This document shows, piece after piece, positions 1-57,871 of a DNA stretch of 64,000 nucleotides; the first letter of the stretch is position 1; the number at the start of each line of letters is the position of its first letter. Source of the DNA: Spirochaetota bacterium (lineage in GTDB: Bacteria; Spirochaetota; UBA4802; UBA5550). The position numbers were made by a program, and so were the translations under genes. The notes under the pieces were generated by a model. It searched no databases, was not told the origin of the DNA, and worked only from the letters and a program-made list of their open reading frames with translations. Where the stretch lies: positions 44,941 through 108,940 of the forward strand of contig DAIUKG010000006.1 in assembly GCA_036848375.1 (NCBI GenBank), read 5' to 3'.

Positions 1-845
1 ATATTAAGGTCTGATTTTAAATGCGATTCAATTATACGAAAGATTGTCAGATAGTTACTTTTCCCGTCTTTGAATGCCTGGTATTCTTTAGAAACAAGAA
101 TATCTTTAAGATGATCTCGAACGTACAATATTTTTTGTATAAATTCAGATTGCGTTACGGTGGATAATGTTTCTGCGTCTTCAACTAAACTTGTCAGGTC
201 CAGCAACAGTTGATAATATTTTTTTTCATTAAAAAGCTCTTCGCATCTTTTGATTTTACGTTCTGTATAATTACGTTCGGTATCAGTAAGATCTCTTTTC
301 CTCAATTCATAGGCAAATGCAAACCGCACGGCTTCAGTAAATATCTCGTCTAAAACCCTTTTTGAATAACAGGAAGGATCTTCGATACCTTTGATTTGAC
401 CTAAAAAAACAAAAGGGGTTCTTCGAATAATATCATGGCTTATTGAAAACAGTGGCTGCTGGATATACTCATACGTGGGAAGATATCGGTACAGTTCTCT
501 TGGCTGAGGAAATATAAAATTTTGCGCTTTTTCCTGTGCAATGTAGGGATTTTTATATTTATATAAATGTTTTAAGAACAAAATGTCTTCATCATCAAAA
601 TAGCCGTTTTGGTTTATATCTATTTTATGCTGGATCAGGCTGCTCTTCATGAAAGGATTATTTATAATGTTATTTAGCTCAGTTTCATCTAATTCATTCC
701 ATTGATTATCACTGTTTAAATCTCCAAGCATAATCAATTCTGAATTAATTTTAACTCGATTTACTGGAAGGTAATAGACTACTCCAGTAATTACACCTGC
801 CAATATAAAAATGATAGTAATGATTATTTTTTTTCTTTTATGCAC
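1..845 (-). CDS. hypothetical membrane-anchored protein, 3' end runs off the window (AT-rich, likely GTG start near 843-845)
   Basis: The minus-strand frame is open from ~845 to position 1. N-terminal K-rich segment plus hydrophobic helix (HKRKKIIITIIFILAGVITGVVYY). ~28% GC, unlike the rest of the window. The ORF track did not list it because it leaves the window. Confidence 0.4.
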   Translation of the reverse strand, partial: MHKRKKIIITIIFILAGVITGVVYYLPVNRVKINSELIMLGDLNSDNQWNELDETELNNIINNPFMKSSLIQHKIDINQNGYFDDEDILFLKHLYKYKNPYIAQEKAQNFIFPQPRELYRYLPTYEYIQQPLFSISHDIIRRTPFVFLGQIKGIEDPSCYSKRVLDEIFTEAVRFAFAYELRKRDLTDTERNYTERKIKRCEELFNEKKYYQLLLDLTSLVEDAETLSTVTQSEFIQKILYVRDHLKDILVSKEYQAFKDGKSNYLTIFRIIESHLKSDLN

Positions 846-1123
846 TTTAATTATCCTTAGCGAATTTAACGACTAAATGAGCTGACAACAGAAATAAAAA
901 AAATTTTAATTCCCATAACGAACAAATACCCCTAAATGATCCTTGACTTTTTGCTCATTAATTTCGATAATCTTACCAGTCATATGAGTCCTCCTTCTGA
1001 TTTAAAAAGTGTGGTTACTTAAATCGTCAGATCGAGGACTTTTTTATTATCTAAATGTGCGAAAGATATTTTCACTACCAGGGAGCGCAGTTGCTATGCT
1101 GAGCCAGGTGTCGTTTTTAATAT

Positions 1124-1243
1124 AAGGGAACCTCTATAAATTACATTTCGGATGTTCCCTTGTGGGCACAACCATTGGATAAATCAGGTTTTATCATTTT
1201 TCAATTAATGAAAAAACCTGATTTTTAGAGGTGCCCATAATTT
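1124..1243. repeat. structured ~120-bp repeat, copy 1 (family also at 4711-4828 inverted and 13115-13288)
   Basis: AAGGGAACCTCTATAAATTACATTTCGGATGTTCCCTTGTGGGCAC...AAATCAGGTTTT...AAAACCTGATTTTTAGAGGTGCCCATAAT. Nested inverted repeats: GGGAAC/GTTCCC, GGGCAC/GTGCCC, AAATCAGGTTTT/AAAACCTGATTT, and ACCTCTA/TAGAGGT between the two ends. Confidence 0.8.
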
Positions 1244-1648
1244 ATAGCCGTAGAAAATATAGATATTATTATTTTTCAAGTATTCAAATATTTTACCTGA
1301 TTCCAAGAAATCTAAATATTTTTCTGATTTAATTTTTAGCCATTCAATATCTTTATAATCTATATTACTTTGATCTCCAATATGCTCTATGAATGTTTCT
1401 TCATAAAATAAATTAGTGTTTTTATAGGATACTTTATTTTTATTATTATCATAGGAATAGAACTGACCAATTATTCTTGGTTTATCTTCATTAATTAATT
1501 TTATAGATAAAAACTCAACTTCAAAATCTACTTCATCTAATGAATCAAATAAATATTTCCATTTACTATTATTCATATAGCTATTTAGTTGTTTTTTCAT
1601 AATAAAATAATGAATATAAAAATGACGCTTAACTAAAATTAACCTCAT
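1205..1648 (-). CDS. hypothetical 147-aa protein, AT-rich; the last codons run into repeat copy 1
   Basis: Complete ORF in the six-frame track. ~27% GC and Asn/Lys/Tyr-rich. No recognisable domain. Confidence 0.45.
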   Translation of the reverse strand: MRLILVKRHFYIHYFIMKKQLNSYMNNSKWKYLFDSLDEVDFEVEFLSIKLINEDKPRIIGQFYSYDNNKNKVSYKNTNLFYEETFIEHIGDQSNIDYKDIEWLKIKSEKYLDFLESGKIFEYLKNNNIYIFYGYKLWAPLKIRFFH

Positions 1649-1649
1649 T

Positions 1650-2340
1650 TCATTTTATCACCACACACCCCATGAGGCACAACGCCAGCCCATCAATTAA
1701 CAGCGTTAGTTCTTCGCCAGCACAAACTGTAATCGACTCTATTGAATAGTCAAGGAAATAATGGGTCCCCCCTGTAGGGACCGGTCGCGACCGGTCCCTA
1801 CAGGGGGGACCCTCGACATCATATACCGGGCCCGCACTCTTCCCTCTCCCGATAGCGCGGTCATGGACGACCGTGCTGGGAAGCAACAGGATGTTGCACA
1901 TGCAGGCGCGTCCAGGATGGACAAAAAAGCGCCTGCCTAGTCTGTCAGGATGACAATACGAGCCCCGCACCATAGGTTCATGCCGCGGACGTGACGGAAG
2001 GTTCCGGTTACACTCTTTTCTGAATCCCGTCCGCCGTGAGGCGGACACCTGTCAGGCGTCTGTCTGAGCCGAAAGGAGCATAGCGACGTCGGCGAGTTTC
2101 GCCCGAAGCCCGTCGCGGCGTCTGAGCGACCGCCCTCTCTTTTCGGCCTTTTCTCTGGGCGATGCAGAGAAAAGGCCATCGTGTTCCCGGCCCCGGCAAC
2201 AACCCTCTCACGCCGGTAACGGCGTGCAACAAGCCGGAGGCTTATATTTTAGCTCGTTCCAAAAGCGGCAAACCCCCAACTCGTGTCACGAGTTAAAACA
2301 CCCCGGGCAGGCTGCCCGCATGATTTCCCACCCCTCTTTA
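1650..2340. other. GC-rich (~58%) non-coding block with many hairpins; candidate structured ncRNA or mobile-element remnant
   Basis: All six frames give Arg/Pro-rich nonsense ORFs. Perfect hairpins GTCCGCC-GTGA-GGCGGAC (2028-2045), GGCCTTTTCTCTG-N7-CAGAGAAAAGGCC (2145-2177), CACGCC-GGTAAC-GGCGTG and AACTCG-N5-CGAGTT. There is a sharp compositional jump against AT-rich flanks. Confidence 0.35.
1765..1810. repeat. 46-bp perfect palindrome GTCCCCCCTGTAGGGACCGGTC GC GACCGGTCCCTACAGGGGGGAC, followed by the conserved tail GGACCCTCGACATCAT
   Basis: Read directly from the sequence. The same C6-CTGCAG-G6 core recurs at 2939-2953 and 3636-3685. The tail recurs at 2952-2967. Confidence 0.9.
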
Positions 2341-2375
2341 TTAAACTTTAAGCGAGGAAGGCGAAAAGCAAAACT

Positions 2376-2780
2376 CTATATGAATACAGATGGTGATACC
2401 GAGAATTTTTTTGCTAATAATTTTATTTGTCTTATATTTAATTCTCTTTTGCCATGTAATATTTCAGATACAACACCCTGTGATCCTATTTCACGCAAAT
2501 CTGATTGTTTTAATCCATGTTCAGACATGAGTTCTTTTAAGATGGTCACAACGCCGGGCTGGTTAATTGTATATTTTTCCTCTTCATACTTTTCAATGAG
2601 CAAGCCAATGGTTTCCATGAGAAGAGCCAAAGGATGTTTATCATTATTGCCGACCTCATCGACGAGTTCATCTAATCTTTTACAAAGATTATTATAATCT
2701 TTTTTATTATGGGGCACGCTCAACAGTTCAGCTACTGAAGGCCACAATTTTTCAATGTTTTTTAATTCTGCACTTAACAT
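2376..2780 (-). CDS. higA: HigA-family antitoxin (C-terminal XRE-type helix-turn-helix)
   Basis: 134 aa. The C-terminus QSDLREIGSQGVVSEILHGKRELNIRQIKLLAKKFSVSPSVFI is a typical HTH_XRE. It lies 1 nt downstream of a higB-like reading frame, the HigBA gene order. Confidence 0.7.
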   Translation of the reverse strand: MLSAELKNIEKLWPSVAELLSVPHNKKDYNNLCKRLDELVDEVGNNDKHPLALLMETIGLLIEKYEEEKYTINQPGVVTILKELMSEHGLKQSDLREIGSQGVVSEILHGKRELNIRQIKLLAKKFSVSPSVFI

Positions 2781-2781
2781 T

Positions 2782-2938
2782 TTATTTTTTCCATTTGTTT
2801 TTATTATATTCAGTATGAGTCAAGACATGGCGAATGTATACTATTTTACGATTATAATGAATAGCCGCGATTAATCGATATTTATTACCTCCAATATTAA
2901 AAACGGTTAAATCATTAACAATATCAGCATATGGAAAT
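2782..2938 (-). pseudogene. higB: HigB (RelE/ParE-fold 'killer protein') toxin gene, missing its 5' end; only the C-terminal ~50 codons are recognisable
   Basis: The minus-strand translation ...YADIVNDLTVFNIGGNKYRLIAAIHYNRKIVYIRHVLTHTEYNKNKWKK* matches the HigB C-terminal motif (GGNKYRLI...Y[IV]R.[IL]GTHxEYDK). Upstream the frame runs into the palindromic element at 2939 with no start codon or toxin N-terminal domain. Confidence 0.6.
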
Positions 2939-3060
2939 ATCCCCCCTGCAGGGGGACCCTCGACATCATTTTTCGGCCTACACTCTTTCTCCCCCTTTAC
3001 GTAAAGGGGGCCGGGGGAATTTCTCCTCCACCTCCCCGGCGGCCCTGTGCGCCACTTTTA
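2939..3060. repeat. G/C-palindrome cluster inserted at the 5' end of higB: CCCCCCTGCAGGGGG + GGACCCTCGACATCAT tail, then CCCCCTTTACGTAAAGGGGG (2989-3008) and CCGGGG...CCCCGG
   Basis: The first ~55 nt (palindrome, ACCCTCGACATCAT, ~8 nt, CGGCCYRCACTCTTYC) are colinear with 1795-1850. This suggests a small palindrome-associated repeat or mobile sequence. Confidence 0.5.
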
Positions 3061-3162
3061 AAACTTTTTTTAATTATCCGGGAACCCCCTTCCTGTTCGC
3101 GGGTTAATTATATAAATTCCGGGAGATACGCCCGATTTCAGATAATAAAGGAAATAAATCCC

Positions 3163-3591
3163 ATGAAACACATGATATACCTGCTGTTCGCGCTGGTCCT
3201 TTTCGCGGTCGCCTGCACTGACGAGGAAAACGACGATTACCAGGTAAGGATCAAGACCTTCGGCTATCCGTGCCTTGGGTGGATCGACAGCGATGATGAA
3301 ACGATAACGTTCGCTGCAGACGATTTTGAGGGGGATGACGGCATCTATTACTACACGAAAAACCTCGACAGCCCCGACACGGTAAGCGTGATTGCCCAGG
3401 GATACTACAACAGCGAGTCAGAGTACACCGAAAGCATTTACGTGTCTATTTACGAGAACGACGAGAAGGTAGCGTCAGAAACCGATACCACGAGCATCAC
3501 CTATGACAACGGCGAGGTCGAATATGTGGAAAAGGCGTACGTTTCGCTTGATTACACCTTCGATGATGATGATGACGACGACGATGAGTGA
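3163..3591 (+). CDS. small acidic lipoprotein (signal peptide with AVAC lipobox; C-terminal poly-Asp tail)
   Basis: MKHMIYLLFALVLFAVAC|TDEEN... 142 aa. It ends ...FDDDDDDDDE. GGAAATAAATCCCATG provides a plausible RBS. Confidence 0.6.
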   Translation: MKHMIYLLFALVLFAVACTDEENDDYQVRIKTFGYPCLGWIDSDDETITFAADDFEGDDGIYYYTKNLDSPDTVSVIAQGYYNSESEYTESIYVSIYENDEKVASETDTTSITYDNGEVEYVEKAYVSLDYTFDDDDDDDDE

Positions 3592-3635
3592 AAGCAGTAA
3601 CACCACGGAATTGAGAGAACATGATGTTGGCAATA

Positions 3636-3695
3636 GAATCCCCCCTGCAGGGAACGGGCATGCCCGTTCCCTGCAGGGGGGATTCTATCTTTTTT
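3636..3695. terminator. 50-bp perfect palindrome (GAATCCCCCCTGCAGGGAACGGGC AT GCCCGTTCCCTGCAGGGGGGATTC) followed by a T-run; likely intrinsic terminator, possibly bidirectional
   Basis: A GC-rich stem is followed by TCTTTTTTACT, 45 nt downstream of the lipoprotein gene stop. Confidence 0.6.
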
Positions 3696-3774
3696 ACTAT
3701 TATTGAAACAGCAGGCGCAACCCGGCCTGTATGAGCCAGGCGTTGTCGAGCGAATATTTCACCCGGTACTCATC

Positions 3775-4644
3775 CTAGTATCTTTTAAACTCGCTTCTGC
3801 CGTAAATATATGACGCGCCGAACTGGTACCCGGCAAAAGCCACGAGGGCGATATTGCGGTGGATGTATGTGGAGATACGTTCGCCCGCGCGATGGTATTC
3901 ATAAAAGAGATTTTCTTTTTTGTTTTCCCTGCGGTTGAGCATGTACACGTCCTTGTCATAAGAATATTCCGTGCCCAGGATCAAAAACGAAAGCGGCCTG
4001 AACTCAAACGCGGTAAAGATTGACGCGACCGGAATATATCTGAACCGAAGGGTAAAATAGTCTTTCGGTTTCCAGACAAGCCGGGTTAACAACCCGAGGG
4101 TGAAGTCAACTTCATCATTTACAAACTTGTAACTGATCATGGGGATAGGTATGGGCAGGCCGATGTTGCGGGTTATCAGCGAAGAGTAGTTGACCCCGAA
4201 GCTGACCGAATGGGGCCCCTCCTGATAAATCTCATAGTACATCGTGGAAGTAATGGCAAAATCATCGAAACTTCTGAACGGCCTGTTGGTATTGTTGGAA
4301 AAACTGAAAAGAAAACTCACCTTGTCAAGATAAAAGCTGAAGGTCTCCTGTATCCGGTACAGCTCGACAGGCACAGGAATGTCCGTTTCGCGATTGGTGT
4401 AGGTAAAAAACAGATAGTTTTTGATTCTCGTGCCGCTGTTCACGTGAAACGTGTCAATGAACGAGGCGTCACAGGCATTGACATCCTCATCAGGGCCTTC
4501 ACTCTTGTGATACAGAAACGTGAGAATGTGGTCCGGCTGTTTTTCTTTTGGGGGGATGTTTTTGTTCTCGTCATCTGCCGTAACCCTGTGGGGAAAGAAA
4601 ATTATGCAGATGATCAGGGCTGTTGTGTAAAATATATGCTTCAT
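3775..4644 (-). CDS. hypothetical secreted protein, possibly an outer-membrane beta-barrel
   Basis: 289 aa from MKHIFYTTALIICIIFFPHRVTA (signal peptide). Alternating hydrophobic pattern with many aromatic residues. It ends ...GRSEFKRY. No family recognised. Confidence 0.5.
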   Translation of the reverse strand: MKHIFYTTALIICIIFFPHRVTADDENKNIPPKEKQPDHILTFLYHKSEGPDEDVNACDASFIDTFHVNSGTRIKNYLFFTYTNRETDIPVPVELYRIQETFSFYLDKVSFLFSFSNNTNRPFRSFDDFAITSTMYYEIYQEGPHSVSFGVNYSSLITRNIGLPIPIPMISYKFVNDEVDFTLGLLTRLVWKPKDYFTLRFRYIPVASIFTAFEFRPLSFLILGTEYSYDKDVYMLNRRENKKENLFYEYHRAGERISTYIHRNIALVAFAGYQFGASYIYGRSEFKRY

Positions 4645-4710
4645 TGACAAGCTCACCTCTCCACTGTCTCACGACTATTGTTACAAGACCCGGGAAGGGT
4701 CAAGATAATT

Positions 4711-4828
4711 TTAAGGGCACCTCTAAAAATCAGGTTTTTTCATTAATTGAAAAATGATAAAACCTGATTTATCCAATGGTTGTGCCCACAAGGGAACATC
4801 CGAAATGTAATTTATAGAGGTTCCCTTA
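4711..4828. repeat. structured repeat copy 2, reverse complement of copy 1
   Basis: AAGGGCACCTCTAAAAATCAGGTTTTTTCATTAATTGAAAAATGATAAAACCTGATTTATCCAATGGTTGTGCCCACAAGGGAACATCCGAAATGTAATTTATAGAGGTTCCCTT is a near-perfect reverse complement of 1124-1243. Confidence 0.8.
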
Positions 4829-4983
4829 AAATTCTGCTTTCACGATTTTCCAAAAGTACCGAAACCAGAACTTCAATTGCCGGGATGCGTGATGACGACG
4901 ACACAAGCCGTGCAGCAGATCAATGCCACGGATGTGACGGACGATACACGTGCACACGAGAGATGTCATCCCCCCTTGCACAT

Positions 4984-5012
4984 AAAAAAAAAGATGAACC
5001 GTGCGGTCCATC
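4984..5012 (-). terminator. hairpin (GATGGACC-GCAC-GGTTCATC on the minus strand) followed by a 9-nt U-run, downstream of the 5051-5788 gene
   Basis: The stem has one mismatch in 8 bp. It is followed by TTTTTTTTT on the transcribed strand. Confidence 0.4.
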
Positions 5013-5050
5013 TTAGCGAATGAACTTATTGAAACCCGGTTAGATGCCTG

Positions 5051-5788
5051 TTAAAACCGAATCCCGAAAAACACGGAAACCTCAACTCCGTTATAATCCG
5101 TGTTTTCAAAAATGTGGTAATACTTCGCCTCAACACCCACCGTGTATCGCTGCATAAACGTGTACATCACGTTAACGCCGCCGTCGATCATCATGTCCGC
5201 GGAAGCATCATTCATCACATTGTTCCGCTCTTCCATGTTCGCGATGATGACAGCAAGCCCCACTCCGGCCAGCAGCTGAAGGTCAAAGCCCTTTCCCAGG
5301 GGGAAGGTCAGGAACGGATGAGCGATAAAATACAGAAACCGGATGTTGCCGTCATACGTGTTGTCGTCAAGCTGGGTGAACCCCCCGTCAACTCCGAGCC
5401 CGAACCACCAGATGATGTCCTGGTACTGAAAGAATATCCTTCCGGACACCTGACCGTCGACGATGTCGCCCAGGTCCTGGAGGGGGACAAAGTAGCCCAG
5501 GTCAAACCCGAGGAGCATTTTCTTCTTCGGCACCGCAGCTGACTCGTCAAGTTTTTCATCCTTTGCCTGTTTTTCATCTTTAACCGCTTTTGCCGCCGCC
5601 TTTGACAAGGGCTTCGTTGTCTGCACGGTCTTTTTTACCGCGGTCTTTCCGGCCTGGGCTTTCTCGCCAGCGGCCCATGCCCGGCCAAAACCCGCGAAAA
5701 CAAGCATCGCGGCAAGGACGGCGGCGCATACCCACACAGGCCGGCGGCGCTCCGTGTATTTTTCAGAAGAAACATGCTTACTCATCAT
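5051..5788 (-). CDS. outer-membrane beta-barrel protein (OmpA-like barrel/OMP_b-brl type) with a Lys/Ala-rich linker; C-terminal Phe
   Basis: Start taken at MMSKH, where GAGG lies 7 nt upstream; the ORF track begins 21 codons earlier. Signal peptide VWVCAAVLAAMLVFAGFGRAWA. Amphipathic beta-strand patterning. It ends ...VSVFFGIRF. Confidence 0.55.
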   Translation of the reverse strand: MMSKHVSSEKYTERRRPVWVCAAVLAAMLVFAGFGRAWAAGEKAQAGKTAVKKTVQTTKPLSKAAAKAVKDEKQAKDEKLDESAAVPKKKMLLGFDLGYFVPLQDLGDIVDGQVSGRIFFQYQDIIWWFGLGVDGGFTQLDDNTYDGNIRFLYFIAHPFLTFPLGKGFDLQLLAGVGLAVIIANMEERNNVMNDASADMMIDGGVNVMYTFMQRYTVGVEAKYYHIFENTDYNGVEVSVFFGIRF

Positions 5789-10338: not shown

Positions 10339-11766
10339 ATGCCTCTGAAAATTTACAACACCCTGTCATGCCGTATCGACGAGCTTATCCCGGGCGGAGA
10401 AAAAAAGGACCGGCTTGAGGACTATCCCCCGGTAACCATTTATTCATGCGGCCCTACCGTGTACAGTTACGCCCATATCGGCAATTTCAGGACCTTTATC
10501 TTTAATGACTTTCTCAGGCGGTACCTTAAATTCAGGGGCTTTAAGGTCAACCACGCCATGAACATAACCGATGTTGACGACAAAACCATTGCCGGCGCTG
10601 CCGCGGATCACATCACCCTGAAGGAATACACCGGGAAATACACTGATATCTTTTTTAATGACCTGGCGACCCTGAATATTGAGCCGGTTGAGCACAATCC
10701 CCGGGCGACTGAATCCGTTGACGCCATGATAGACATTATCGCGCACCTGGAGGAAAAGGGGCTCATGTACGAGAAGGAAGGGTCTCTGTATTTCAGCATC
10801 TCGAAATATGACCGCTACGGCAGGCTCAGCAATGTCGATTCGCGCGAGATCAAATCAGGCCTGCGCTATGATACTGATGAATACGAAAAGGACGATGTTC
10901 GCGATTTCGCGCTGTGGAAATCCTCAAAACCCGGCGAAATATCATGGGACACTCCCTGGGGAAAAGGAAGGCCCGGATGGCACATAGAATGCTCCGCCAT
11001 GATACGAAAAATTTTCGGCACCACGATCGACATCCACACCGGCGGCGTTGACCTTATTTTCCCGCATCACGAGAATGAAATCGCCCAGAGCGAGGCAGCG
11101 TACGGAGAGACCTTTGTGCGCCACTGGATCCACGCGGAGCACCTGCTTGTTGACGGCTCAAAGATGTCCAAGTCAAAAGGAAATTTTTACACCCTGCGCG
11201 ACCTGCTCGACCGCGGATTTTCACCCAGGGCGATACGGTACCTCCTCATATCGGCACACTATCGAAAACAGCTCAACTTCACCTTTGAAGGCATAGGCCA
11301 GGTTGACCAGGCCCTGTCGCGGCTGGACAACCTGCTGGTCAGGCTGAACGACATTAAAACCGTGAAAGAGCTTTCCCCTGAAACCGTGAAGCTCTCCGAA
11401 GAGCTGACGACGCGCTTTACCGAATCGCTTGATGACGACCTCAATATATCCGGCGGCATGGCCGCGCTTTTTGACTATGTTCACGCGGTAAACAGCCTTA
11501 TCGACCAGGACGCCATGGGCACGGCGGACGCGTCTCACGCGATTGACTGCCTGAAAAAAATCGATTCGGTCCTGGGCGTTATTTTCTTCCCGGTTGAAAA
11601 GAACGACGTGGATGAAAGCCGCATCGAAAATCTCGTAGAAGAACGCACGGAAGCTAAAAAGAACAAAAATTTCAAGCGGGCGGATGAAATACGCGACACG
11701 CTGCTCGCACAAGGCATTGTACTTGAAGACACCAAAGAAGGCACACGGTGGAAGATAAAGAAATAA
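10339..11766 (+). CDS. cysS: cysteine--tRNA ligase
   Basis: 475 aa. Class-I HIGH motif (YAHIGNFRT), KMSKSKGN and CGPTVYSY. Length and architecture are typical of CysRS. Confidence 0.95.
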   Translation: MPLKIYNTLSCRIDELIPGGEKKDRLEDYPPVTIYSCGPTVYSYAHIGNFRTFIFNDFLRRYLKFRGFKVNHAMNITDVDDKTIAGAAADHITLKEYTGKYTDIFFNDLATLNIEPVEHNPRATESVDAMIDIIAHLEEKGLMYEKEGSLYFSISKYDRYGRLSNVDSREIKSGLRYDTDEYEKDDVRDFALWKSSKPGEISWDTPWGKGRPGWHIECSAMIRKIFGTTIDIHTGGVDLIFPHHENEIAQSEAAYGETFVRHWIHAEHLLVDGSKMSKSKGNFYTLRDLLDRGFSPRAIRYLLISAHYRKQLNFTFEGIGQVDQALSRLDNLLVRLNDIKTVKELSPETVKLSEELTTRFTESLDDDLNISGGMAALFDYVHAVNSLIDQDAMGTADASHAIDCLKKIDSVLGVIFFPVEKNDVDESRIENLVEERTEAKKNKNFKRADEIRDTLLAQGIVLEDTKEGTRWKIKK

Positions 11767-12479
11767 TTTTCGGCCGCAATCCCGTTTTTGAATACCTCAA
11801 ATCGTCCGCGCATCAGGAAGGAGCCGAAGTCTATATCGCGGACCACGCTCACGGCAAAATAATCGACGAAATCAGGGCCGAGGCGGGCAGAAAAAAAATC
11901 CCCCTCGTCACGCGGGACAAAAATTTCTTTCACTCACTCGGCCCTTCATCCAGGCACCAGGGCGTGGCCATGAAGATACCCGGCAATGGCGGCAGGGGGG
12001 ATGCTGATCTGCTGCTGCATGCCGCGGCCCGGAAAGGGGTGCTGGTCATGCTCGACCAGATTACCGACCCGCACAACGCAGGGGCGATCATCCGCACGGC
12101 CGAGGCTCTGGGCTGCGACGGGATCGTGATTCCCAAAAGCCATTCATCAGGCATCACGCCGACCGTGATCAAGGCCGCGGCAGGGGCGACGGCCCATATC
12201 GGCATCGCCATGGTCCCCAACGCAGCCGCGTTTATTGACCGCGCCAAAGAAGCCGGGTTCTGGGTGATCGGGACCACTGACCACGGGGACAGGGTCCCGG
12301 ACGGGCTGAACAGTATCAGGCCCGCGCTGGTTATCATCGGAAGCGAAGGGGCCGGGATGCGCAGGCTCACCGAGGAGAAATGCGACTACCGGGTGCGCAT
12401 TCCCCTGAAGGGAAAGGTTTCGTCCCTTAACGCGTCAGTGGCGGCGGGAATTATCCTGTACGAAATAATGAAATCTTGA
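11748..12479 (+). CDS. rlmB: SpoU/TrmH-family RNA 2'-O-methyltransferase, RlmB-like (GTG start overlapping the cysS stop)
   Basis: Motifs VMLDQITDPHNAGAIIRTAEALGCDGIVI, LVIIGSEGAGMRRLTE and LNASVAAGIILYE. The N-terminal IFGRNPVFEYLKS is the RlmB-type substrate domain. Confidence 0.7.
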   Translation: MEDKEIIFGRNPVFEYLKSSAHQEGAEVYIADHAHGKIIDEIRAEAGRKKIPLVTRDKNFFHSLGPSSRHQGVAMKIPGNGGRGDADLLLHAAARKGVLVMLDQITDPHNAGAIIRTAEALGCDGIVIPKSHSSGITPTVIKAAAGATAHIGIAMVPNAAAFIDRAKEAGFWVIGTTDHGDRVPDGLNSIRPALVIIGSEGAGMRRLTEEKCDYRVRIPLKGKVSSLNASVAAGIILYEIMKS

Positions 12480-12875
12480 TTATTTCAGCATCACCAGCGA
12501 CAGTCCTTTAATTTCCTTAAAGTGCTTGTCTCGCGTTATGAGTTGCAGACCGTATTGAATTGCCAGTGCAGCAACCCAAATATCATTTTCGGGGATAGGT
12601 TTGCCTTTCTTTTTCAGTTCACTTTTAAGGCTGCCATATATTTTTGCTGTCTCGATATTATTTTCGAGGATTGAAGAACAGGCAATGAACTCTTCTAATC
12701 TTTTTTTATTCTCATTCTTTCGTAAAGAATTATGAATGCCATAGTACAATTCACCAATAACAGTATTACAAATAAAAATTTCTTTTGCTGTAGTAAGCTT
12801 TTTAATCACTTCCCGGTCATTATTAAAAAGAGCAATAATAATATTTGTATCGAGTAAATACTTACCACTCGCCAT
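12480..12875 (-). CDS. vapC: PIN-domain ribonuclease toxin (VapC family)
   Basis: MASGKYLLDTNIIIALFNND... carries the conserved PIN acidic residues. It overlaps the upstream small gene by ~14 nt. The stop codon abuts the rlmB stop with no intergenic space. Confidence 0.8.
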   Translation of the reverse strand: MASGKYLLDTNIIIALFNNDREVIKKLTTAKEIFICNTVIGELYYGIHNSLRKNENKKRLEEFIACSSILENNIETAKIYGSLKSELKKKGKPIPENDIWVAALAIQYGLQLITRDKHFKEIKGLSLVMLK

Positions 12876-13092
12876 TATCAACCTTCTCACAGCCATCTTC
12901 TATTACTTCAAGAATTTGGTGGGCCTCGGCATCACTTAATGTTCCTGCAAATTTCAATAAATCTTTACCGGATTTACCTTTCGTCTGAACGCTGGCCAAT
13001 GCATGGGCAAAATCCTGTACTTTTTTTTGCAGATCAAGAGGAAGCTTTTCCATATCATTTATCAGCTTCTTTTTAATTTCAGGTCTAATCAT
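12862..13092 (-). CDS. cognate antitoxin (DUF2281-like small protein)
   Basis: 76 aa, ...KLPLDLQKKVQDFAHAL... It sits immediately upstream of the PIN gene and overlaps it, as in type II TA operons. Confidence 0.55.
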   Translation of the reverse strand: MIRPEIKKKLINDMEKLPLDLQKKVQDFAHALASVQTKGKSGKDLLKFAGTLSDAEAHQILEVIEDGCEKVDNGEW

Positions 13093-13114
13093 AAAGCTCC
13101 TCCCGGATTAGAAT

Positions 13115-13288
13115 AAGGGAACCTCTCTAAATAACATTTTTGATGTTCCCTTGTGGGTATCCCGATTCCTTATAGCTATTTAATGAATCGGGAGATAAAT
13201 CAGGTTTTATACCCCTACTAACTCCCCCTATCAGGGGGAGAATAAAAGAGGGGGTTAAAAACCTAATTTTTAGAGGTACCCATAATAA
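13115..13288. repeat. structured repeat copy 3, same orientation as copy 1, expanded by two extra stem-loops
   Basis: It shares AAGGGAACCTCTCTAAATAACATTTTTGATGTTCCCTTGTGGGTA...ATAAATCAGGTTTTAT...AAAACCTAATTTTTAGAGGTACCCATAAT. Inserted hairpins are TCCCGATTC...GAATCGGGA and CTCCCCC-CTATCA-GGGGGAG. The GGGCAC/GTGCCC stem of copy 1 is replaced by GGGTA/TACCC, a compensatory change. Confidence 0.75.
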
Positions 13289-13423
13289 TTAATGTTTACT
13301 GTATTTTACGTTTCTAAAATGACAAATTAAAATTATTAAGTATAAGCTACTATCAGAATTGTTAGTAGTCACTTCTCCTTTTGTAAAGGATATTATTGAT
13401 CATAGAAAAAAATATTATCAGTC

Positions 13424-13468
13424 GCTGCGGGGATTGTGCTGTATGAAATAATGAAATCTTGATTATGC
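13424..13468. repeat. divergent direct duplicate of the last ~45 nt of rlmB (encodes SVAAGIVLYEIMKS*), about 0.95 kb downstream of the real gene end
   Basis: 43/50 identities with 12433-12482. The differences are mostly synonymous (I->V only). This gene-end duplication flanks the vapBC/repeat insert. Confidence 0.8.
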
Positions 13469-13504
13469 CTGCCGGACGGGATATATTTATGGAGAGGTGA
13501 TGTT

Positions 13505-13870
13505 ATGCTTCTCGTAAACAGAAATGTACGCCAGCACCCCGATTCAATTATACGGGGACGCAATATCATGGCCGGCCTGTGCGTCCTGATCTTGTTCGCC
13601 ATTATAATTATTGTGTCCCTTTCATGGCCCAGGGTGGGAACCATGTTTGACCGCCTGTATAAAACCATGGCAATTACCGGTCCCCTTGACAAAAAAATCA
13701 TCATCTACGCATTCTATCTTCTCCCTCCCCTGGGGCTGTTTTCGGTGATCGGCCTGGTATTGAATTCCATGCGCACGAAAAGAAAGTATGACCGCTGGAG
13801 CATGTCCCTGATCCTGGGGGCGGTGGTCGCTGCCGCGGGCGGGCTGGTGTATTTATTGGTGTTTATGTAA
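13505..13870 (+). CDS. small hypothetical membrane protein (3 predicted TM helices)
   Basis: 121-aa ORF with hydrophobic segments LCVLILFAIIIIVSL, IIIYAFYLLPPLGLFSVIGLVL and LILGAVVAAAGGLVYLLVF. Confidence 0.35.
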   Translation: MLLVNRNVRQHPDSIIRGRNIMAGLCVLILFAIIIIVSLSWPRVGTMFDRLYKTMAITGPLDKKIIIYAFYLLPPLGLFSVIGLVLNSMRTKRKYDRWSMSLILGAVVAAAGGLVYLLVFM

Positions 13871-13999
13871 GCAGTATAACATTTCCGGCATTAGAGGCAG
13901 TTTATTCATTTCTAAACTGCTTTTTCATCCCCCCTTTAATAAAAATTTATATCTGCCGGGTATTTTTTTGCAACGTTATCAAGTTAATAATGTGCAATA

Positions 14000-14941
14000 A
14001 TGTACCCGAACAACCATACCAACAACCGGCCCCTGCATAAAATATTTAGCGCAAGGGCGCTTCTCACTCTTATTCAGGTAGCAGTGATCACCGCCAGGCA
14101 TATTCGGCGTGCTGAAATTTCAAATCAAAAGACGGAACACATGCCCGGGACAGAGGTCCTTCACCACTGGGCCCGGGAGCTGATCATGGCTGGAAGAATC
14201 AGAGTTAAAGCCAGGGGTAACCATCCTGAAAAAAACGCACTTTATATATGCAACCACCGCTCATATCTTGACATTGTAGCGATTGGCAGTGTTCTGCCAG
14301 TCACTTTTCTGGCAAAAGATGAAGTCGCCTCATGGCCTTTGTTCGGGCGCGGCTGCAGGGTTGCGGATGTCGTTTTTGTCAAACGGAACGACTCCGAAAG
14401 CAGAACACGGAGCCGTGACAGCATTAGCCTGGTACTGGACAGAAAAATGAGTATCGCGGTGTTTCCCGAAGGGACTTCTTTTGCCGGCCCGGGGATACTT
14501 CCTTTTAAAAAAGGCCCCTTCTCTATCGCTGCAGAAAATAATTTCACCGTTGTTCCGGTAGCAATCGATTATGCCGATCCGGATGACGCGTGGGTGGGAA
14601 GCGACACGTTCATCAGGCATTTCTTCCAGACTTTCGCGAAGAAAAAAATAACCATACTTGTCAGTTTCGGCCCGTCGATACGAAGCGATGACCCGGACGC
14701 CCTGCAGGCATACTGCCGGCACTGGATACATCACGCACTTATAGATCAAAAGAATTCAGACAAAAACTATAATTTACTGGAGGTTTATAATGAACCACCC
14801 TACGGGAAGTCAAAAAGCATCCGGCAACATCCCGCCCGGAAAAGCGAAAGAAAAGAACCCCTACCGGTACCAGGTATTATTCAGGCCGGGATTACACATG
14901 AGCGACGAAAAGATAGCGCTCCTGGTCGAAAAAATCCGTGA
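14000..14941 (+). CDS. plsC: lysophospholipid (1-acyl-glycerol-3-phosphate) acyltransferase, PlsC family
   Basis: H(X)4D motif NHRSYLD and FPEGTSF motif. The ends are uncertain; it may start at 14187, and its C-terminal extension overlaps the next ORF. Confidence 0.7.
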   Translation: MYPNNHTNNRPLHKIFSARALLTLIQVAVITARHIRRAEISNQKTEHMPGTEVLHHWARELIMAGRIRVKARGNHPEKNALYICNHRSYLDIVAIGSVLPVTFLAKDEVASWPLFGRGCRVADVVFVKRNDSESRTRSRDSISLVLDRKMSIAVFPEGTSFAGPGILPFKKGPFSIAAENNFTVVPVAIDYADPDDAWVGSDTFIRHFFQTFAKKKITILVSFGPSIRSDDPDALQAYCRHWIHHALIDQKNSDKNYNLLEVYNEPPYGKSKSIRQHPARKSERKEPLPVPGIIQAGITHERRKDSAPGRKNP

Positions 14942-15641
14942 TACTGCATCAACAGCCTTTCACGAAATTCCCGATTACCAGGTCTTCAGAGGGACCCGTG
15001 ATGAACTCGCTGATAAAATAATCGCCATAGCATGGCGTGACGATGGGGAAATCGCCGGGTTCTGCTCAACGGTCATTCTTGAAGTGAAGGGAGTGGGAAA
15101 AGTGATTCACCTCGGCCTGACAATCGTCCGGCCTGAAGACAGAAGCGGCGGACTTACCCATATTCTCACTCACAAGGCAGTAGCGGCATTTCTTTTCAGG
15201 TACCGTCCCATTATTGGCAAACTCTGGATCACCAACTGCGCGGCTGTTCTGAGCAGCCTCGTCAATGTCTCGTTGTTTTTTGAAAAAGTCTATCCATCCC
15301 CGAAACCCGGAACAAAGATTACCAGGAAACACCAGATAATAGCCAGGGCAATTGACACATATTACAGAGATAAAATCTATATCAGCGACCAGGCGATGTT
15401 TGATCATGAGCACTTCGTTTTCAGGGGAAGCGTCAAAGACACAGTTTTCCAGAAAAAAGAAGAAGATACCAGCTACTATCACCGCAACATCCATTACAAC
15501 GAATATTTCAAACAGAAAATGAAATTCGAGAACGGGGACGAAGTGCTCCAGATAGGCTTTGCCAGCACTTTTGCGGCAATCAAGCACCTCTGGAGAAATG
15601 TACCATTGCCAAAGCCAAAGGTACAAAGCCAGAATTTATAG
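14897..15641 (+). CDS. hypothetical protein (start ambiguous; ORF open from 14790)
   Basis: Long ORF with ordinary codon usage. No confident domain. Confidence 0.4.
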
Positions 15642-15786: not shown

Positions 15787-17400
15787 ATGAACGCTCCCAA
15801 GCTACAACAGAACAGTTTCAGTACAAGAAAGTCCCTCGTTGCCGGGCTTGTCCTTCTACTGGCCTTTATTATAACAGCGGGGATTATCGGACTCTACACA
15901 CTCAACAAGTCCTTCACCAACTCTGAAGAATACATTGACGCAATCGATTCCGCGCGTGAAACGCAGGTGCTCATCCAGAAACAGATACAGATATGGAAAA
16001 CAACAATACTTGAAAGTGATGATTATGACCAGTATCGTAAACTTTTTTACGAATTTTCACGGTATTCAACTGTTATACAGGATATGCTCTTCAACCTGAA
16101 AATAACCTGCTCATCGTTTGAAGAAACCCCTGACGAAATCATGAAATTGAGCGAGCTGCACAAACAACTATCAGAGGAATACATTCTCCTCCTGGTAAAT
16201 CTCGAGGAATCAGGATTCAGGAATAAAAAAACAATTATCGATGCCGCAAAAGGGAAAGACGCCCGGATCTTCGACAGCATCGACAGGATCGTCGGCAGAA
16301 TAAAAAATCATTCCCATTACATGATGGACCGTATAAACAAGTTTTATCTTGCAATCGTATTTGCAGTGCTCCTGATCATGATTTTCGCGGCAGTTTCCCT
16401 GAGTATTTACCTGAGCAGAAGAATTTTCAGGGCCCAGTACATTCTGGAAAAAAAAGTTTCCGAAAGAACAAAAGACCTTGTCGATGCGAACAGAAAGATC
16501 AAACTCTCCGAAGAAAAATACCGTCTTATAGTTGAAGGATCCCGTGATATCATTTTTTCACTTGATGAATCACTCAAATTCATCACCGTGAACAGGACTG
16601 TTTACGAGTTCTTTAAGGTGAAGCCAGAAAAAGTCGAAGGTAAAAACTTCTTCGATATTATCAACAGCGAAACACCGGAATCGCATTTCACCATAGGGCT
16701 TATCAAAGAAAAAATATCACATCTTATGGCCAACAGCGGCACAACCCAGTTCATTGCCGACATCAAGATCCCGGGGTTCATTGAATCAATTGCTCTTAAT
16801 GTAAAGCTGGAATCTCTTAACTTCGATGACAAAAAAGAAATTCTGGGACACGCCGCTCCGGCAGTCCAGGACACCATCGTGAACTATCTCGTAAGGGAAA
16901 GAAGAAAATTCCGCATCGACAATTCTCTCATTGCCGCTGACGACATGTCGCTGAAGCTCACTGCGGGTCTTTCAAAAATTCTGGACGATTCAGAAGTGAA
17001 AATCACCAGAATTGCGTTGAGGGAAATAATGATCAATGCAATTGAACACGGGAACCTGAATATCAGTTTCATGGAAAAAAGCACCGCGATGATAAAAGAT
17101 GAATACTTCAAGCTGCTTAAAAGCAGGCAGCTCGACCCGAAATACAGGGACAAAAAAATTGAAATTGAATACACCTTTGATCATGACAAAGTGGTTTACC
17201 GGATAACCGATGAAGGAAACGGCTTCGACCACAACAGTATGGTCAAACGCTCAATCAACAGGATTAACGACGGGATGATAACGCACGGAAGAGGCATAGC
17301 CATGGCCCGCCAGATATTTGACCACCTGCGCTACAACGAAAAAGGGAATGAAGTCCTTCTGGTAAAATATTTTAATCAGTGCGGGACGGCAGCGGGATGA
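15787..17400 (+). CDS. membrane-anchored sensor with a PAS domain and a C-terminal GHKL/HATPase-like (RsbW/SpoIIAB-type kinase) domain
   Basis: N-terminal TM segment, a second TM around aa 190-210, PAS-like KYRLIVEGSRDIIFSLDE..., then C-terminal EIMINAIEHGN...YRITDEGNGFD (ATP-lid G1 box). Confidence 0.55.
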   Translation: MNAPKLQQNSFSTRKSLVAGLVLLLAFIITAGIIGLYTLNKSFTNSEEYIDAIDSARETQVLIQKQIQIWKTTILESDDYDQYRKLFYEFSRYSTVIQDMLFNLKITCSSFEETPDEIMKLSELHKQLSEEYILLLVNLEESGFRNKKTIIDAAKGKDARIFDSIDRIVGRIKNHSHYMMDRINKFYLAIVFAVLLIMIFAAVSLSIYLSRRIFRAQYILEKKVSERTKDLVDANRKIKLSEEKYRLIVEGSRDIIFSLDESLKFITVNRTVYEFFKVKPEKVEGKNFFDIINSETPESHFTIGLIKEKISHLMANSGTTQFIADIKIPGFIESIALNVKLESLNFDDKKEILGHAAPAVQDTIVNYLVRERRKFRIDNSLIAADDMSLKLTAGLSKILDDSEVKITRIALREIMINAIEHGNLNISFMEKSTAMIKDEYFKLLKSRQLDPKYRDKKIEIEYTFDHDKVVYRITDEGNGFDHNSMVKRSINRINDGMITHGRGIAMARQIFDHLRYNEKGNEVLLVKYFNQCGTAAG

Positions 17401-53443: not shown

Positions 53444-53507
53444 GTGCTCTGACCCCAGGCAGGTTGGAAACCTGCCCCTCTAGACCACATTATTGTGCTC
53501 TGACCCC
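53444..53507. repeat. intergenic repeat module: 2x GTGCTCTGACCCC flanking the GNRA-loop hairpin GGCAGGTT-GGAA-AACCTGCC
   Basis: Direct reading of the sequence. The same module occurs at 57661-57800. Confidence 0.8.
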
Positions 53508-57660: not shown

Positions 57661-57800
57661 GGGGCTGGCTGGGAACCTGCCCCTGCAGGCCCCATATATT
57701 ATGCTCTGACCCCCTGAAACGGTGCTCTGACCCCCGATTATCCGCACGAATGATTTGCTCTGACCCCAGGGCAGGTTGAAAACCTGCCCCTACGGACCCC
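57661..57800. repeat. intergenic repeat module: 3x (G)TGCTCTGACCCC plus GNRA hairpin GGCAGGTT-GAAA-AACCTGCC and a related GGGAACCTGCCCCTGCAGG
   Basis: Direct reading. It lies in the divergent promoter region between the KS gene and the 57978 gene. Confidence 0.8.
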
Positions 57801-57827
57801 CATTATCTGCTGTTTTTTACCTCTTTC

Positions 57828-57871
57828 CCTTCGTTACACCTTCGTTACACCTTCGATACACCTTCGTTACT
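57828..57871. repeat. 11-bp tandem repeat x4 (CCTTCGTTACA, CCTTCGTTACA, CCTTCGATACA, CCTTCGTTACT)
   Basis: Direct reading. It ends ~105 bp upstream of the 57978 start codon. Confidence 0.85.

What the first reader, a model, noticed from the sequence alone, without database searches (positions are those of the whole stretch)
12480..13468. vapBC plus repeat islet inserted exactly at the rlmB stop codon, flanked by a divergent duplicate of the rlmB 3' end
rlmB ends at 12479 and the PIN toxin gene ends at 12480, with no spacer. About 945 bp later, 13424-13468 repeats the final 15 codons of rlmB (43/50 nt identical, encoding SVAAGIVLYEIMKS* against SVAAGIILYEIMKS*). This architecture is the hallmark of integrative elements that target the 3' end of a conserved gene and carry a replacement gene end (attL/attR). 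Here the cargo is only a toxin-antitoxin pair plus the structured repeat, with no integrase. That makes it a minimal, possibly trans-mobilised cassette. It also hints that the structured repeat may be the recombination-site part.
Basis: seen in the sequence. Interest (0 to 1): 0.65.

Follow-up and report, generated by a model that had tools for sequence, protein, structure and literature searches.

The report
Old toxin-antitoxin insertion behind rlmB
A small foreign toxin-antitoxin gene pair was inserted long ago exactly behind the ribosomal-RNA methylase gene rlmB of an uncultured spirochaete, duplicating the last 49 bases of the target; it is now a fixed, vertically inherited relic, an ordinary kind of event.

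Summary
rlmB ends at 12479 and a convergent PIN (vapC) gene ends at 12480. A 49-nt direct repeat (12435-12483 and 13418-13466, 43/49 identical, last 22 nt exact) brackets a 934-nt low-GC insert. The insert holds vapC, vapB, their promoter and a 165-nt structured repeat.

The insertion reading holds:
- The insert is compositionally foreign (GC 0.30-0.38, against 0.65 in rlmB).
- It is absent after rlmB in the 68% outgroup and in 80 other rlmB loci.

The "minimal, trans-mobilised cassette" reading does not hold:
- The cassette is single-copy. The nearest other VapC is 69% identical.
- It is identical in 13 assemblies.
- It sits at the same nucleotide in a relative about 8% diverged in DNA. There, vapC has diverged in step with its neighbours (dS 0.21 against 0.27-0.36) and under purifying selection (dN/dS 0.19).

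The structured repeat is a separate MITE-like element with terminal inverted repeats and WTAA flanks. Copies lie in other Spirochaetes genomes, with no TA-sized gene pair in the raw ORF lists of their flanks. Here it landed between the vapBC promoter and the ribosome-binding site.

The relic copy supplies the -35 hexamer (TTGATT, overlapping the old stop codon) of the next gene's promoter.

Best reading: an ancient single-crossover integration, probably a decayed integrative element. The recombinase is unknown. This is a new member of a known kind, of low-to-moderate interest.

The parts
11748..12479 (+). rlmB, 23S rRNA (guanosine2251-2'-O)-methyltransferase, the target gene, intact
   Evidence: NCBIfam TIGR00186 at 205.5 bits (cutoff 160.15). 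Pfam SpoU_methylase plus SpoU_sub_bind. cysS-rlmB synteny is conserved in at least 15 Spirochaetota loci.
12435..12483 (+). Left copy of the 49-nt direct repeat (attL-like). It holds the last 14 codons and stop of rlmB plus TTAT. The TTA at 12480-12482 is also the vapC stop codon on the other strand.
12480..12875 (-). vapC, a PIN-domain toxin of 131 aa (mechanical ORF start 12896). The acidic residues D9, E41, D97 and D115 are present by inspection.
   Evidence: Pfam PIN E 3.8e-19. NCBIfam VapC models match but below their cutoffs. dN/dS is 0.19 against the L014 lineage.
12862..13092 (-). vapB-like antitoxin of 76 aa, overlapping vapC by 14 nt
   Evidence: Weak DUF2281 and VapB matches. Homologous 76-aa partners (55-59% identical) sit upstream of the homologous VapC in L025 and L027.
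13099..13104 (-). Ribosome-binding site GGGAGG of vapB
   Evidence: Conserved as GGGAGG or AGGAGG in L025 and L027
13113..13285 (+). Structured repeat copy C, a MITE-like element. The body GGG...CCC is 13117-13281, flanked by ATAA on both sides. It is inserted in the vapBC 5' leader.
13298..13325 (-). Probable vapBC promoter (TTGTCA-16-TACAGT). It is positionally homologous to TTGACA-15-TATAGA upstream of vapB in L025 and L027.
   Evidence: consensus match plus comparison; not shown to be functional
13418..13466 (+). Right copy of the 49-nt direct repeat (attR-like), an untranslated relic of the rlmB 3' end that would still read SVAAGIVLYEIMKS*
13459..13487 (+). Promoter-like site of the downstream gene. 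The -35 TTGATT overlaps the relic stop codon, followed by a 17-nt spacer and the -10 TATATT.
   Evidence: Both hexamers and the spacing are conserved in the 86% relative L021, while 8 of 17 spacer bases differ.
13505..13870 (+). Downstream host gene, a 121-aa membrane protein of unknown family

Best explanation
A foreign, self-contained vapBC toxin-antitoxin operon entered the chromosome of an ancestor of this Spirochaetota lineage. It was about 760 nt before a later MITE insertion. It entered by one reciprocal crossover (Campbell-type) within the last 45 nt of rlmB plus the 4 nt that follow. That topology leaves the 49-nt target on both sides.

The left copy still finishes rlmB. The right copy is an untranslated relic whose TTGATT, lying over the old stop codon, is kept as the -35 of the next gene's promoter. 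So the duplication preserved both functions that overlapped at the target.

The most likely vehicle was a small integrative element, or a larger island that has since decayed. That is the cis-mobilizable-element (CIME) state: att-like repeats kept, recombinase gone. The TA pair would be the last survivor because it is addictive. It is still under purifying selection.

The element is no longer mobile, and it is fixed and vertically inherited. The structured repeat is an unrelated MITE-like element that later landed between the vapBC promoter and the ribosome-binding site.

Shown: the duplication, the foreign composition, absence in outgroups, co-divergence with flanking genes, purifying selection, and the independence of the MITE.

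Inferred: the single-crossover mechanism, the kind of recombinase, addiction as the reason for retention, and promoter function.
For: - The 49-nt direct repeat is far beyond chance.
- The insert has GC 0.30-0.38, against 0.65 in rlmB.
- vapC, vapB and a promoter form a complete operon, homologous in layout to vapBC loci in L025 and L027.
- vapBC is absent after rlmB in the 68% outgroup L015 and in 80 further rlmB loci, while cysS-rlmB synteny is kept.
- The junction is identical in the 93% (RlmB amino-acid identity) lineage L014. DNA identity between the lineages is 93.1% for vapC and 91.4-91.6% for rlmB and cysS. dS is 0.21 against 0.27 and 0.36, and vapC dN/dS is 0.19.
- There is no variation among 13 loci from ENA, JGI, NCBI and Logan records.
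- The relic's last 22 nt are unchanged, and the TTGATT-17-TATATT hexamers are conserved in L021 although the spacer differs at 8 of 17 bases.
- A homologous vapBC in L027 lies beside three tandem tyrosine recombinases, so this TA family does travel with recombinase-bearing elements.
- The CIME concept, and the e14/icd/icdC precedent of a displaced gene end, come from the literature (PMC5704250, PMC6323972, PMC6379469, PMC13626634).
Against: - No recombinase is visible in the insert or in a raw ORF list of the window; most window ORFs were not profile-scanned.
- No related autonomous element or attP-like sequence was found. The two viral hits to the 18-mer are chance. Plasmid and phage DNA searches were empty.
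- None of the 80 rlmB loci shows a duplicated rlmB end, so rlmB is not a known integration hot spot.
- The vapC stop codon lies inside the repeat, which leaves no room for arm-type sites on that side.
- No empty site in a close relative could be obtained.
- The two copies may have been identical at the start, which fits RecA-mediated or repair-associated routes equally well.
Confidence: 0.5

Rival explanations
1. Homology-driven acquisition from a related bacterium. DNA carrying an rlmB end followed by vapCB entered by transformation or transduction. It was joined by RecA through the rlmB homology. Either a small circle recombined by a single crossover through about 49 nt, or homology-facilitated illegitimate recombination made the right-hand junction 49 nt upstream of the recipient's stop. 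No dedicated recombinase was involved.
For: The topology is the same as in the best explanation. All differences between the copies are synonymous or conservative: 5 of 6 lie at third codon positions, plus one I/V change. The relic still encodes an intact RlmB C-terminus, identical to that of the L014 lineage, as expected if two orthologous gene ends met. No recombinase or att-bearing relative was found.
Against: It needs a donor in which vapC already abutted rlmB. No such locus exists among 80 rlmB loci apart from the same clade. The insert's GC (0.30-0.38) is very unlike this clade's. A 49-nt homology is close to the lower limit for RecA-mediated exchange, according to general knowledge that was not tested here. 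The third-position bias rests on only 2-3 relic-specific changes (P about 0.04-0.1).
Confidence: 0.2
2. Break-repair or transposition-like insertion that itself generated a 49-nt target duplication. Staggered nicks 49 nt apart were filled in after capture of a linear vapBC fragment. The copies were identical at birth and have drifted since.
For: Only 2-3 changes are specific to the relic. That is no more than neutral drift since the lineage split would produce: dS between the lineages is 0.21-0.36, which predicts about 5-9 changes in 49 neutral sites, against 2-3 observed. So no initial divergence is required.
Against: From general knowledge, no known bacterial transposition system makes target duplications of this length. 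The insert has no terminal inverted repeats of its own. The vapC stop codon is supplied by the duplicated target sequence, which would be an odd coincidence for a captured linear fragment.
Confidence: 0.1
3. One reading: a minimal cassette of a TA pair plus a structured repeat that is still mobilised in trans, with the structured repeat acting as its recombination site (integron-cassette-like).
For: A TA pair next to a structured, imperfectly palindromic repeat of 110-165 nt looks superficially like TA cassettes with attC sites in chromosomal integrons. A second TA relic (truncated higB plus higA, 2376-2940) lies between two other copies of the repeat in the window.
Against: - The repeat lies 132 nt inside the right boundary of the insert and 24 nt from the vapB start codon, not at a junction.
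- It splits a promoter-RBS arrangement that is contiguous in homologous vapBC loci.
- Its other copies are solitary and intergenic, occur in either orientation, and carry their own WTAA flanks. No TA-sized gene pair appears in the raw ORF lists of the flanks of the 5 copies from other MAGs.
- The cassette is single-copy, invariant and vertically inherited.
Confidence: 0.04

Closest known systems
Cis-mobilizable elements (CIMEs): decayed ICEs or IMEs that keep attL and attR but have lost integration and transfer genes (defined in PMC5704250 and PMC6323972)
   Same: It is flanked by direct repeats that include the 3' end of the target gene. It has no integrase or transfer genes and its composition is foreign. 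TA modules are typical maintenance cargo of ICEs and IMEs.
   Different: No related ICE or IME and no cognate integrase are known for this site. The element is far smaller (0.93 kb). The repeats have diverged, so their competence as att sites is unproven. It is old and fixed rather than polymorphic.
e14 cryptic prophage in the E. coli icd gene, with the displaced icdC 3' fragment (PMC6379469, PMC13626634)
   Same: Integration into the 3' end of a conserved protein-coding gene. The gene stays intact, and a homologous 3' fragment differing mainly by silent or conservative changes is left at the far end of the insert.
   Different: e14 is about 15 kb, encodes its own integrase and still excises. 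Its duplicated segment is 163 bp. Here there is no recombinase and no sign of excision.
Type II VapBC toxin-antitoxin modules (PIN-domain VapC, tRNA(fMet)-endonuclease type as in Leptospira and enterobacteria)
   Same: PIN domain with four acidic residues. A small upstream antitoxin gene overlaps the toxin gene. It has its own promoter, and homologues are widespread in Spirochaetota and cyanobacteria.
   Different: It scores below NCBIfam's equivalog cutoffs (95.9 bits against 140), so the RNA target is not established. The antitoxin has only weak family matches.
TA gene cassettes with attC sites in chromosomal integrons
   Same: A promoter-bearing TA pair next to a structured, imperfectly palindromic repeat of roughly 110-165 nt.
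   Different: There is no cassette array and no integron integrase in the window. The repeat is not at the cassette boundary, occurs singly in both orientations, and has transposon-like terminal inverted repeats with 4-nt flanks.

Membership tests
Integrative element at a gene 3' end / CIME | [quoted passage not shown] | tested here: met
   49 nt, 43/49 identical, 12435-12483 and 13418-13466
Integrative element at a gene 3' end / CIME | Foreign DNA between the repeats that is absent from the site in related genomes | tested here: met
   GC is 0.30-0.38 against 0.65. There is no vapBC after rlmB in L015 or in 80 other rlmB loci. However, no alignable empty site in a close relative was found.
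Integrative element at a gene 3' end / CIME | No integration or transfer genes inside the element (this distinguishes a CIME from an IME or ICE) | tested here: met
   The only genes are vapC and vapB. The remaining 325 nt hold no ORF above 30 aa apart from one antisense ORF running out of the downstream gene.
Integrative element at a gene 3' end / CIME | Descent from, or att sites shared with, an autonomous element whose integrase uses the same site | tested here: not met
   The two viral hits to the core 18-mer share nothing beyond the 18-mer. No viral VapC relatives were found. There were no plasmid or phage DNA matches. No duplicated rlmB end occurs in 80 loci. The collections are incomplete, so this is weak negative evidence.
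Integrative element at a gene 3' end / CIME | Site-specific excision or accretion at the att sites | not testable with these tools
   This needs raw reads or an experiment.
Type II TA, VapBC | PIN-domain toxin with conserved acidic residues | tested here: met
   PF01850 E 3.8e-19 over 119 of 120 profile positions. D9, E41, D97 and D115 were seen in the sequence.
Type II TA, VapBC | Small antitoxin gene immediately upstream, in one operon | tested here: met
   A 76-aa ORF overlaps vapC by 14 nt. The same 76-aa partner (55-59% identical) sits upstream of the homologous VapC in L025 and L027.
Type II TA, VapBC | Score above the curated cutoff of a VapC equivalog model (tRNA(fMet) endonuclease) | tested here: not met
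   NF047863 scores 95.9 bits against a cutoff of 140, and NF047959 scores 45.4 against 80. Family-level assignment only.
Type II TA, VapBC | Toxicity neutralised by the antitoxin | not testable with these tools
   Indirect only: dN/dS of 0.19 between the lineages indicates a maintained protein.
Integron gene cassette | attC site at the cassette boundary, arrays of co-oriented cassettes, and an IntI integrase nearby | tested here: not met
   The repeat is internal to the insert. Copies are solitary and in both orientations. No integrase-like ORF was noticed in the raw ORF list of the window. The attC consensus was not scanned formally.
MITE (for the structured repeat only) | Terminal inverted repeats, short flanking direct repeats, non-coding, multiple dispersed copies | tested here: met
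   The terminal inverted repeats are GGGAACCTCTATAAA and GGGCACCTCTAAAAA. WTAA lies on both sides in 6 of 7 copies and co-varies (TTAA/TTAA in copy B, ATAA/ATAA elsewhere). There are 3 copies in the window and 5 in two other MAGs. No autonomous partner was sought.
Xer/dif-type module | 28-nt site with XerC and XerD arms | tested here: inconclusive
   The best match to E. coli dif, recalled from memory, is 17/28 at the attR/attB side, with a poor XerD arm (6/11). Twenty sites in the window score at least 17/28. A Spirochaetota dif consensus was not available.

The most novel reading that the evidence does not exclude
vapBC-only mini-elements could form a class of recombinase-less integrative cassettes. 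They would insert at the very ends of conserved genes by borrowing a host or co-resident recombinase, duplicating some tens of bases of the target so that both the gene end and the overlapping downstream promoter survive. This locus would be a fossil of that class. The reconstructed junction does carry an 8-nt perfect inverted repeat, GAAATAAT/ATTATTTC, around a 9-nt spacer.
Probability: 0.06. Interest if true: 0.6.

Novelty: new member of a known kind. Interest (0 to 1): 0.27.

Why it matters
It is a clean, datable example of how a toxin-antitoxin pair settles into a chromosome. It sits at the stop codon of a housekeeping gene, and a target duplication keeps both the gene end and the neighbouring promoter working. 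The pair then persists under purifying selection after any mobility functions are gone. It also shows a MITE-like element landing inside a TA leader, which may alter TA expression. None of this changes current understanding of integrative elements or TA biology. Its main value is for annotation: the relic rlmB end, the vapBC pair and the MITE family in uncultured Spirochaetota.

Tried and rejected
- **Rfam.** A scan of the whole window at gathering thresholds gave no hit, so the structured repeat is not a described RNA family.
- **Exact-protein look-ups.** RlmB and VapC always return the same context and never an empty site.
- **Metagenome DNA scan.** A scan for the 22-nt core found nothing, because that collection evidently lacks this organism (the pattern was checked).
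- **Homologues of the downstream 121-aa protein.** There is only one relative. It lies on a 905-nt contig that starts inside the core (AAATCTTGATTAT), so it cannot show what lies upstream.
- **Viral contigs.** The core 18-mer gave two hits with no similarity beyond the 18-mer, so they are chance. The VapC search found no relatives.
- **Plasmid and phage DNA searches.** No match to the insert.
- **Duplicated rlmB ends in 80 rlmB loci.** The best hit was a 15-nt match in a Bacillus-like rlmB-yacP-sigH locus, judged to be chance.
- **Flanking repeats around the homologous vapBC in L025.** None found.
- **PADLOC defence models.** No hit for VapB or VapC.
- **90% clusters of VapB, VapC and the 121-aa protein.** No variant from the second lineage was found.
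- **dif/Xer resemblance.** Weak and not distinctive.
- **Integron-cassette reading.** Rejected on the position and orientation of the repeats.
- **I11 inverted match (200-225 against 13406-13431).** Judged by inspection to be an AT-rich chance match inside a coding region.

Full report
**1. What is in the sequence**

The + strand carries cysS (10339-11766) and rlmB (11748-12479). rlmB scores above NCBIfam's curated cutoff for RlmB (TIGR00186, 205.5 bits against 160) and has both SpoU domains.

A PIN-domain ORF on the - strand ends at 12480, directly against the rlmB stop codon (PF01850, E 3.8e-19). It is preceded by a 76-aa ORF (12862-13092) that overlaps it by 14 nt, which is the usual vapBC layout. 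Public gene calls start VapC at 12875, giving 131 aa.

Next comes 325 nt with no credible ORF. It holds a 165-nt structured repeat. At 13418-13466 there is a second copy of the end of rlmB.

The two copies are 49 nt long and 43/49 identical, and their last 22 nt are identical. They cover 14 codons, the stop codon and 4 further bases. The translation given, SVAAGIVLYEIMKS*, is right.

A 31-nt probe with three mismatches allowed finds only these two sites and none in 100 shuffles. The arrangement is identical, with 0-1 differences in 1.6 kb, in 13 loci fetched from ENA, JGI, NCBI and Logan records, some of them the same contig fetched twice. So it is not an assembly artefact. GC drops from 0.65 in rlmB to 0.30-0.38 across the insert.

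**2. It is an insertion, and an old one**

The organism is an uncultured member of the Spirochaetota (source names).

The closest outgroup with a usable contig is L015, at 68% RlmB identity. It has rlmB followed after 85 nt by another gene, with no TA pair.

Eighty further rlmB loci were fetched from metagenomes. At least 15 of them keep the cysS-rlmB pair. None has a vapC or vapB homologue downstream of rlmB, and none has a duplicate of its own rlmB end. The best such hit is a 15-nt match in a Bacillus-like rlmB-yacP-sigH locus, judged to be chance. What follows rlmB differs from lineage to lineage.

By contrast, the one sequenced relative at 93% RlmB identity (L014) has vapC abutting rlmB at exactly the same nucleotide. 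Between the two lineages:
- vapC is 93.1% identical in DNA.
- rlmB is 91.4% identical and cysS 91.6%.
- Synonymous divergence is of the same order: dS is 0.21 for vapC, 0.27 for rlmB and 0.36 for cysS.
- vapC has dN/dS of 0.19, like rlmB at 0.16.

So the cassette was already in place in the common ancestor. It has been inherited vertically and is still kept by selection.

**3. It is not a spreading cassette**

- The next most similar VapC in 5.8 billion clustered proteins is 69% identical.
- The 90% clusters of VapB and VapC have a single member each.
- The insert has no DNA relative in the plasmid or phage collections.
- It has no protein relative in viral contigs.

Homologous vapBC pairs (55-60% identical) do exist in other Spirochaetota. 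One lies between an acyl-CoA synthetase gene and tyrS with no flanking repeats. One lies beside three tandem tyrosine-recombinase genes. The family therefore moves, sometimes in the company of recombinases, but this copy shows no sign of recent movement.

**4. The structured repeat is a separate element**

Three copies occur in the window:
- A: 1122-1240, + strand.
- B: 4711-4829, - strand, 99% identical to A.
- C: 13113-13285, + strand.

Five more were found in two other Spirochaetes MAGs.

Aligned, all share inverted termini (GGGAACCTCTATAAA and GGGCACCTCTAAAAA) and conserved internal stems. Two positions carry hairpins of different size. One stem shows a compensatory change, TGGGCA/TGCCCA to TGGGTA/TACCCA. 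The copies fold far better than shuffles on either strand, with z of -5 to -7. There is no Rfam match.

The body GGG...CCC is flanked on both sides by WTAA. This is ATAA/ATAA in five copies and TTAA/TTAA in copy B, with one mixed pair. It looks like a target duplication.

The copies in other genomes are intergenic, and the raw ORF lists of their flanks show no TA-sized gene pair.

The vapBC loci in L025 and L027 have a contiguous TTGACA-15-TATAGA promoter, 12 nt, then the RBS. In the window the equivalent TTGTCA-16-TACAGT lies at 13325-13298 and the RBS GGGAGG at 13104-13099. The repeat sits exactly between them. It is therefore a MITE-like element that landed in the vapBC leader after, or independently of, the vapBC insertion. 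It is not the cassette's recombination site. Without it, the original insert was about 760 nt: a bare vapBC operon.

**5. What the duplication tells us**

A direct repeat of the target on both sides of an insert is the signature of a single reciprocal exchange between the chromosome and a circular molecule carrying the same segment. Staggered cuts would give the same signature but are much less likely.

The vapC stop codon (TAA, complement of 12480-12482) lies inside the repeat. So in the incoming molecule vapC already abutted the rlmB-like segment.

The window's rlmB end, L014's rlmB end and the relic were compared:
- Seven sites vary, all within the first 27 nt.
- Six of the seven are third codon positions.
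- Three changes belong to the window's rlmB (including V to I), one to L014, and two or three to the relic.

With dS of 0.21-0.36 between the lineages, about 5-9 changes would be expected in a neutral 49-nt relic since the split. The 2-3 seen need no initial divergence, so the copies may have been identical at insertion. Equally, all relic changes are silent (P about 0.04-0.1). That would also fit an imported, once-coding gene end. The data cannot separate these two possibilities.

The invariance of the last 22 nt has a plausible reason. TTGATT, overlapping the stop codon, with TATATT 17 nt downstream, is a promoter-like site for the next gene. Both hexamers and the spacing are conserved in the 86% relative L021, while 8 of the 17 spacer bases differ. 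The target thus held two overlapping functions, and the duplication kept both.

**6. Mechanism and rivals**

I commit to an ancient Campbell-type integration whose vehicle was most probably a small or since-decayed site-specific integrative element (confidence 0.5). That is the state the ICE/IME literature calls a CIME: att repeats kept, recombinase lost (PMC5704250, PMC6323972). The textbook parallel for a displaced gene end is e14 in icd with the icdC fragment (PMC6379469, PMC13626634). A TA pair is the expected last survivor of such decay.

Against this reading:
- No cognate recombinase, no attP and no second island at rlmB were found.
- There is no room for arm sites next to vapC.

The rivals are:
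- RecA-driven acquisition from a relative (0.2).
- A repair-type insertion that itself created the duplication (0.1).
- A dif/Xer-type site. The resemblance is weak: 17/28 to E. coli dif with a poor XerD arm, and 20 equally good sites in the window.

**7. Verdict**

The insertion reading is supported. The mobile-cassette and recombination-site readings are not.

This is a new member of a known kind: a fixed TA islet bracketed by a duplicated gene end. It has a neat side story, in which the duplicated end doubles as the neighbour's promoter and a MITE sits in the TA leader. Interest is low to moderate.

The decisive missing data are an empty site or a second attR from intermediate lineages, and read-level tests for excision.

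Noticed in passing
window 1122-1240 (+), 4711-4829 (-), 13113-13285 (+); L016 about 4955-5088, L017 about 1778-1948, L019 about 5141-5290, L020 about 2422-2577; partial copy at L018 5387-5441: A MITE-like family of about 111-165 nt in uncultured Spirochaetes. It has inverted termini (GGGAACCTCTATAAA and GGGCACCTCTAAAAA), WTAA on both flanks, conserved stems with one compensatory pair, and two positions where hairpins of different size are swapped in. The C-rich hairpin module of copy C recurs in L017. It has no Rfam family.
   Followed up: partly
window 1122-4829: Copies A and B of the repeat are 99% identical and inverted. They bracket a 3.47-kb patchwork: a GC 0.21 DUF6678 gene, GC-rich non-coding DNA, a truncated higB plus higA, a small acidic lipoprotein-like ORF and a 293-aa ORF. 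This could be a composite-transposon-like unit or two independent insertions.
   Followed up: no
window 2376-2940 (-): A second TA relic. higA (HTH_3, 134 aa) is intact. higB is cut to its last 52 codons (HigB_toxin profile positions 27-73 of 74, E 2.9e-21). The break coincides with a CCCCCCTGCAGGGGG repeat.
   Followed up: partly
window 1763-1812, 3633-3688, about 2938-2960: Perfect GC-rich palindromes of 50-56 nt built on the motif CCCCCCTG(T/C)AGGG (for example GGGTCCCCCCTGTAGGGACCGGTCG and its complement). This is a second repeat family, one copy of which sits at the higB truncation point.
   Followed up: no
window 13459-13487; L021 6-34: The promoter-like site of the 121-aa gene uses TTGATT, overlapping the (relic) rlmB stop codon, as its -35. 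The hexamers and the 17-nt spacing are conserved in an 86% relative although the spacer has diverged.
   Followed up: partly
L027 1-1742 and 2429-3053: A vapBC pair 59-60% identical to this one lies about 700 nt from three tandem tyrosine-recombinase genes (a recombinase-in-trio-like arrangement). It is followed by ParE/RelB-like and HTH genes.
   Followed up: partly
window 13505-15641 against L015 6729-6814: The 68% outgroup goes from rlmB straight to a homologue of the C-terminal part of the window's 537-aa PAS/HATPase protein (15787-17400). So the 121-aa gene, the acyltransferase and the 283-aa ORF are also lineage-specific. Gene content after rlmB differs in every Spirochaetota locus examined.
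   Followed up: partly
window 12462-12486: At the left junction, GAAATAAT and ATTATTTC form a perfect 8-nt inverted repeat around a 9-nt spacer. At the right junction the second arm is ATTATGCC. This could be a core-type recombinase site or AT-rich chance.
   Followed up: no
window 57828-57870 and 53453-53499 / 57765-57811: An 11-nt tandem repeat (CCTTCGTTACA, about 4 copies), and a pair of 47-nt hairpin-containing repeats (GGCAGGTTGGAAACCTGCC) 4.3 kb apart.
   Followed up: no
window 3-845 (-): A low-GC (0.32) ORF running off the window start has a Dockerin_1 match (E 3e-5), which is unusual for a Spirochaetota genome.
   Followed up: no
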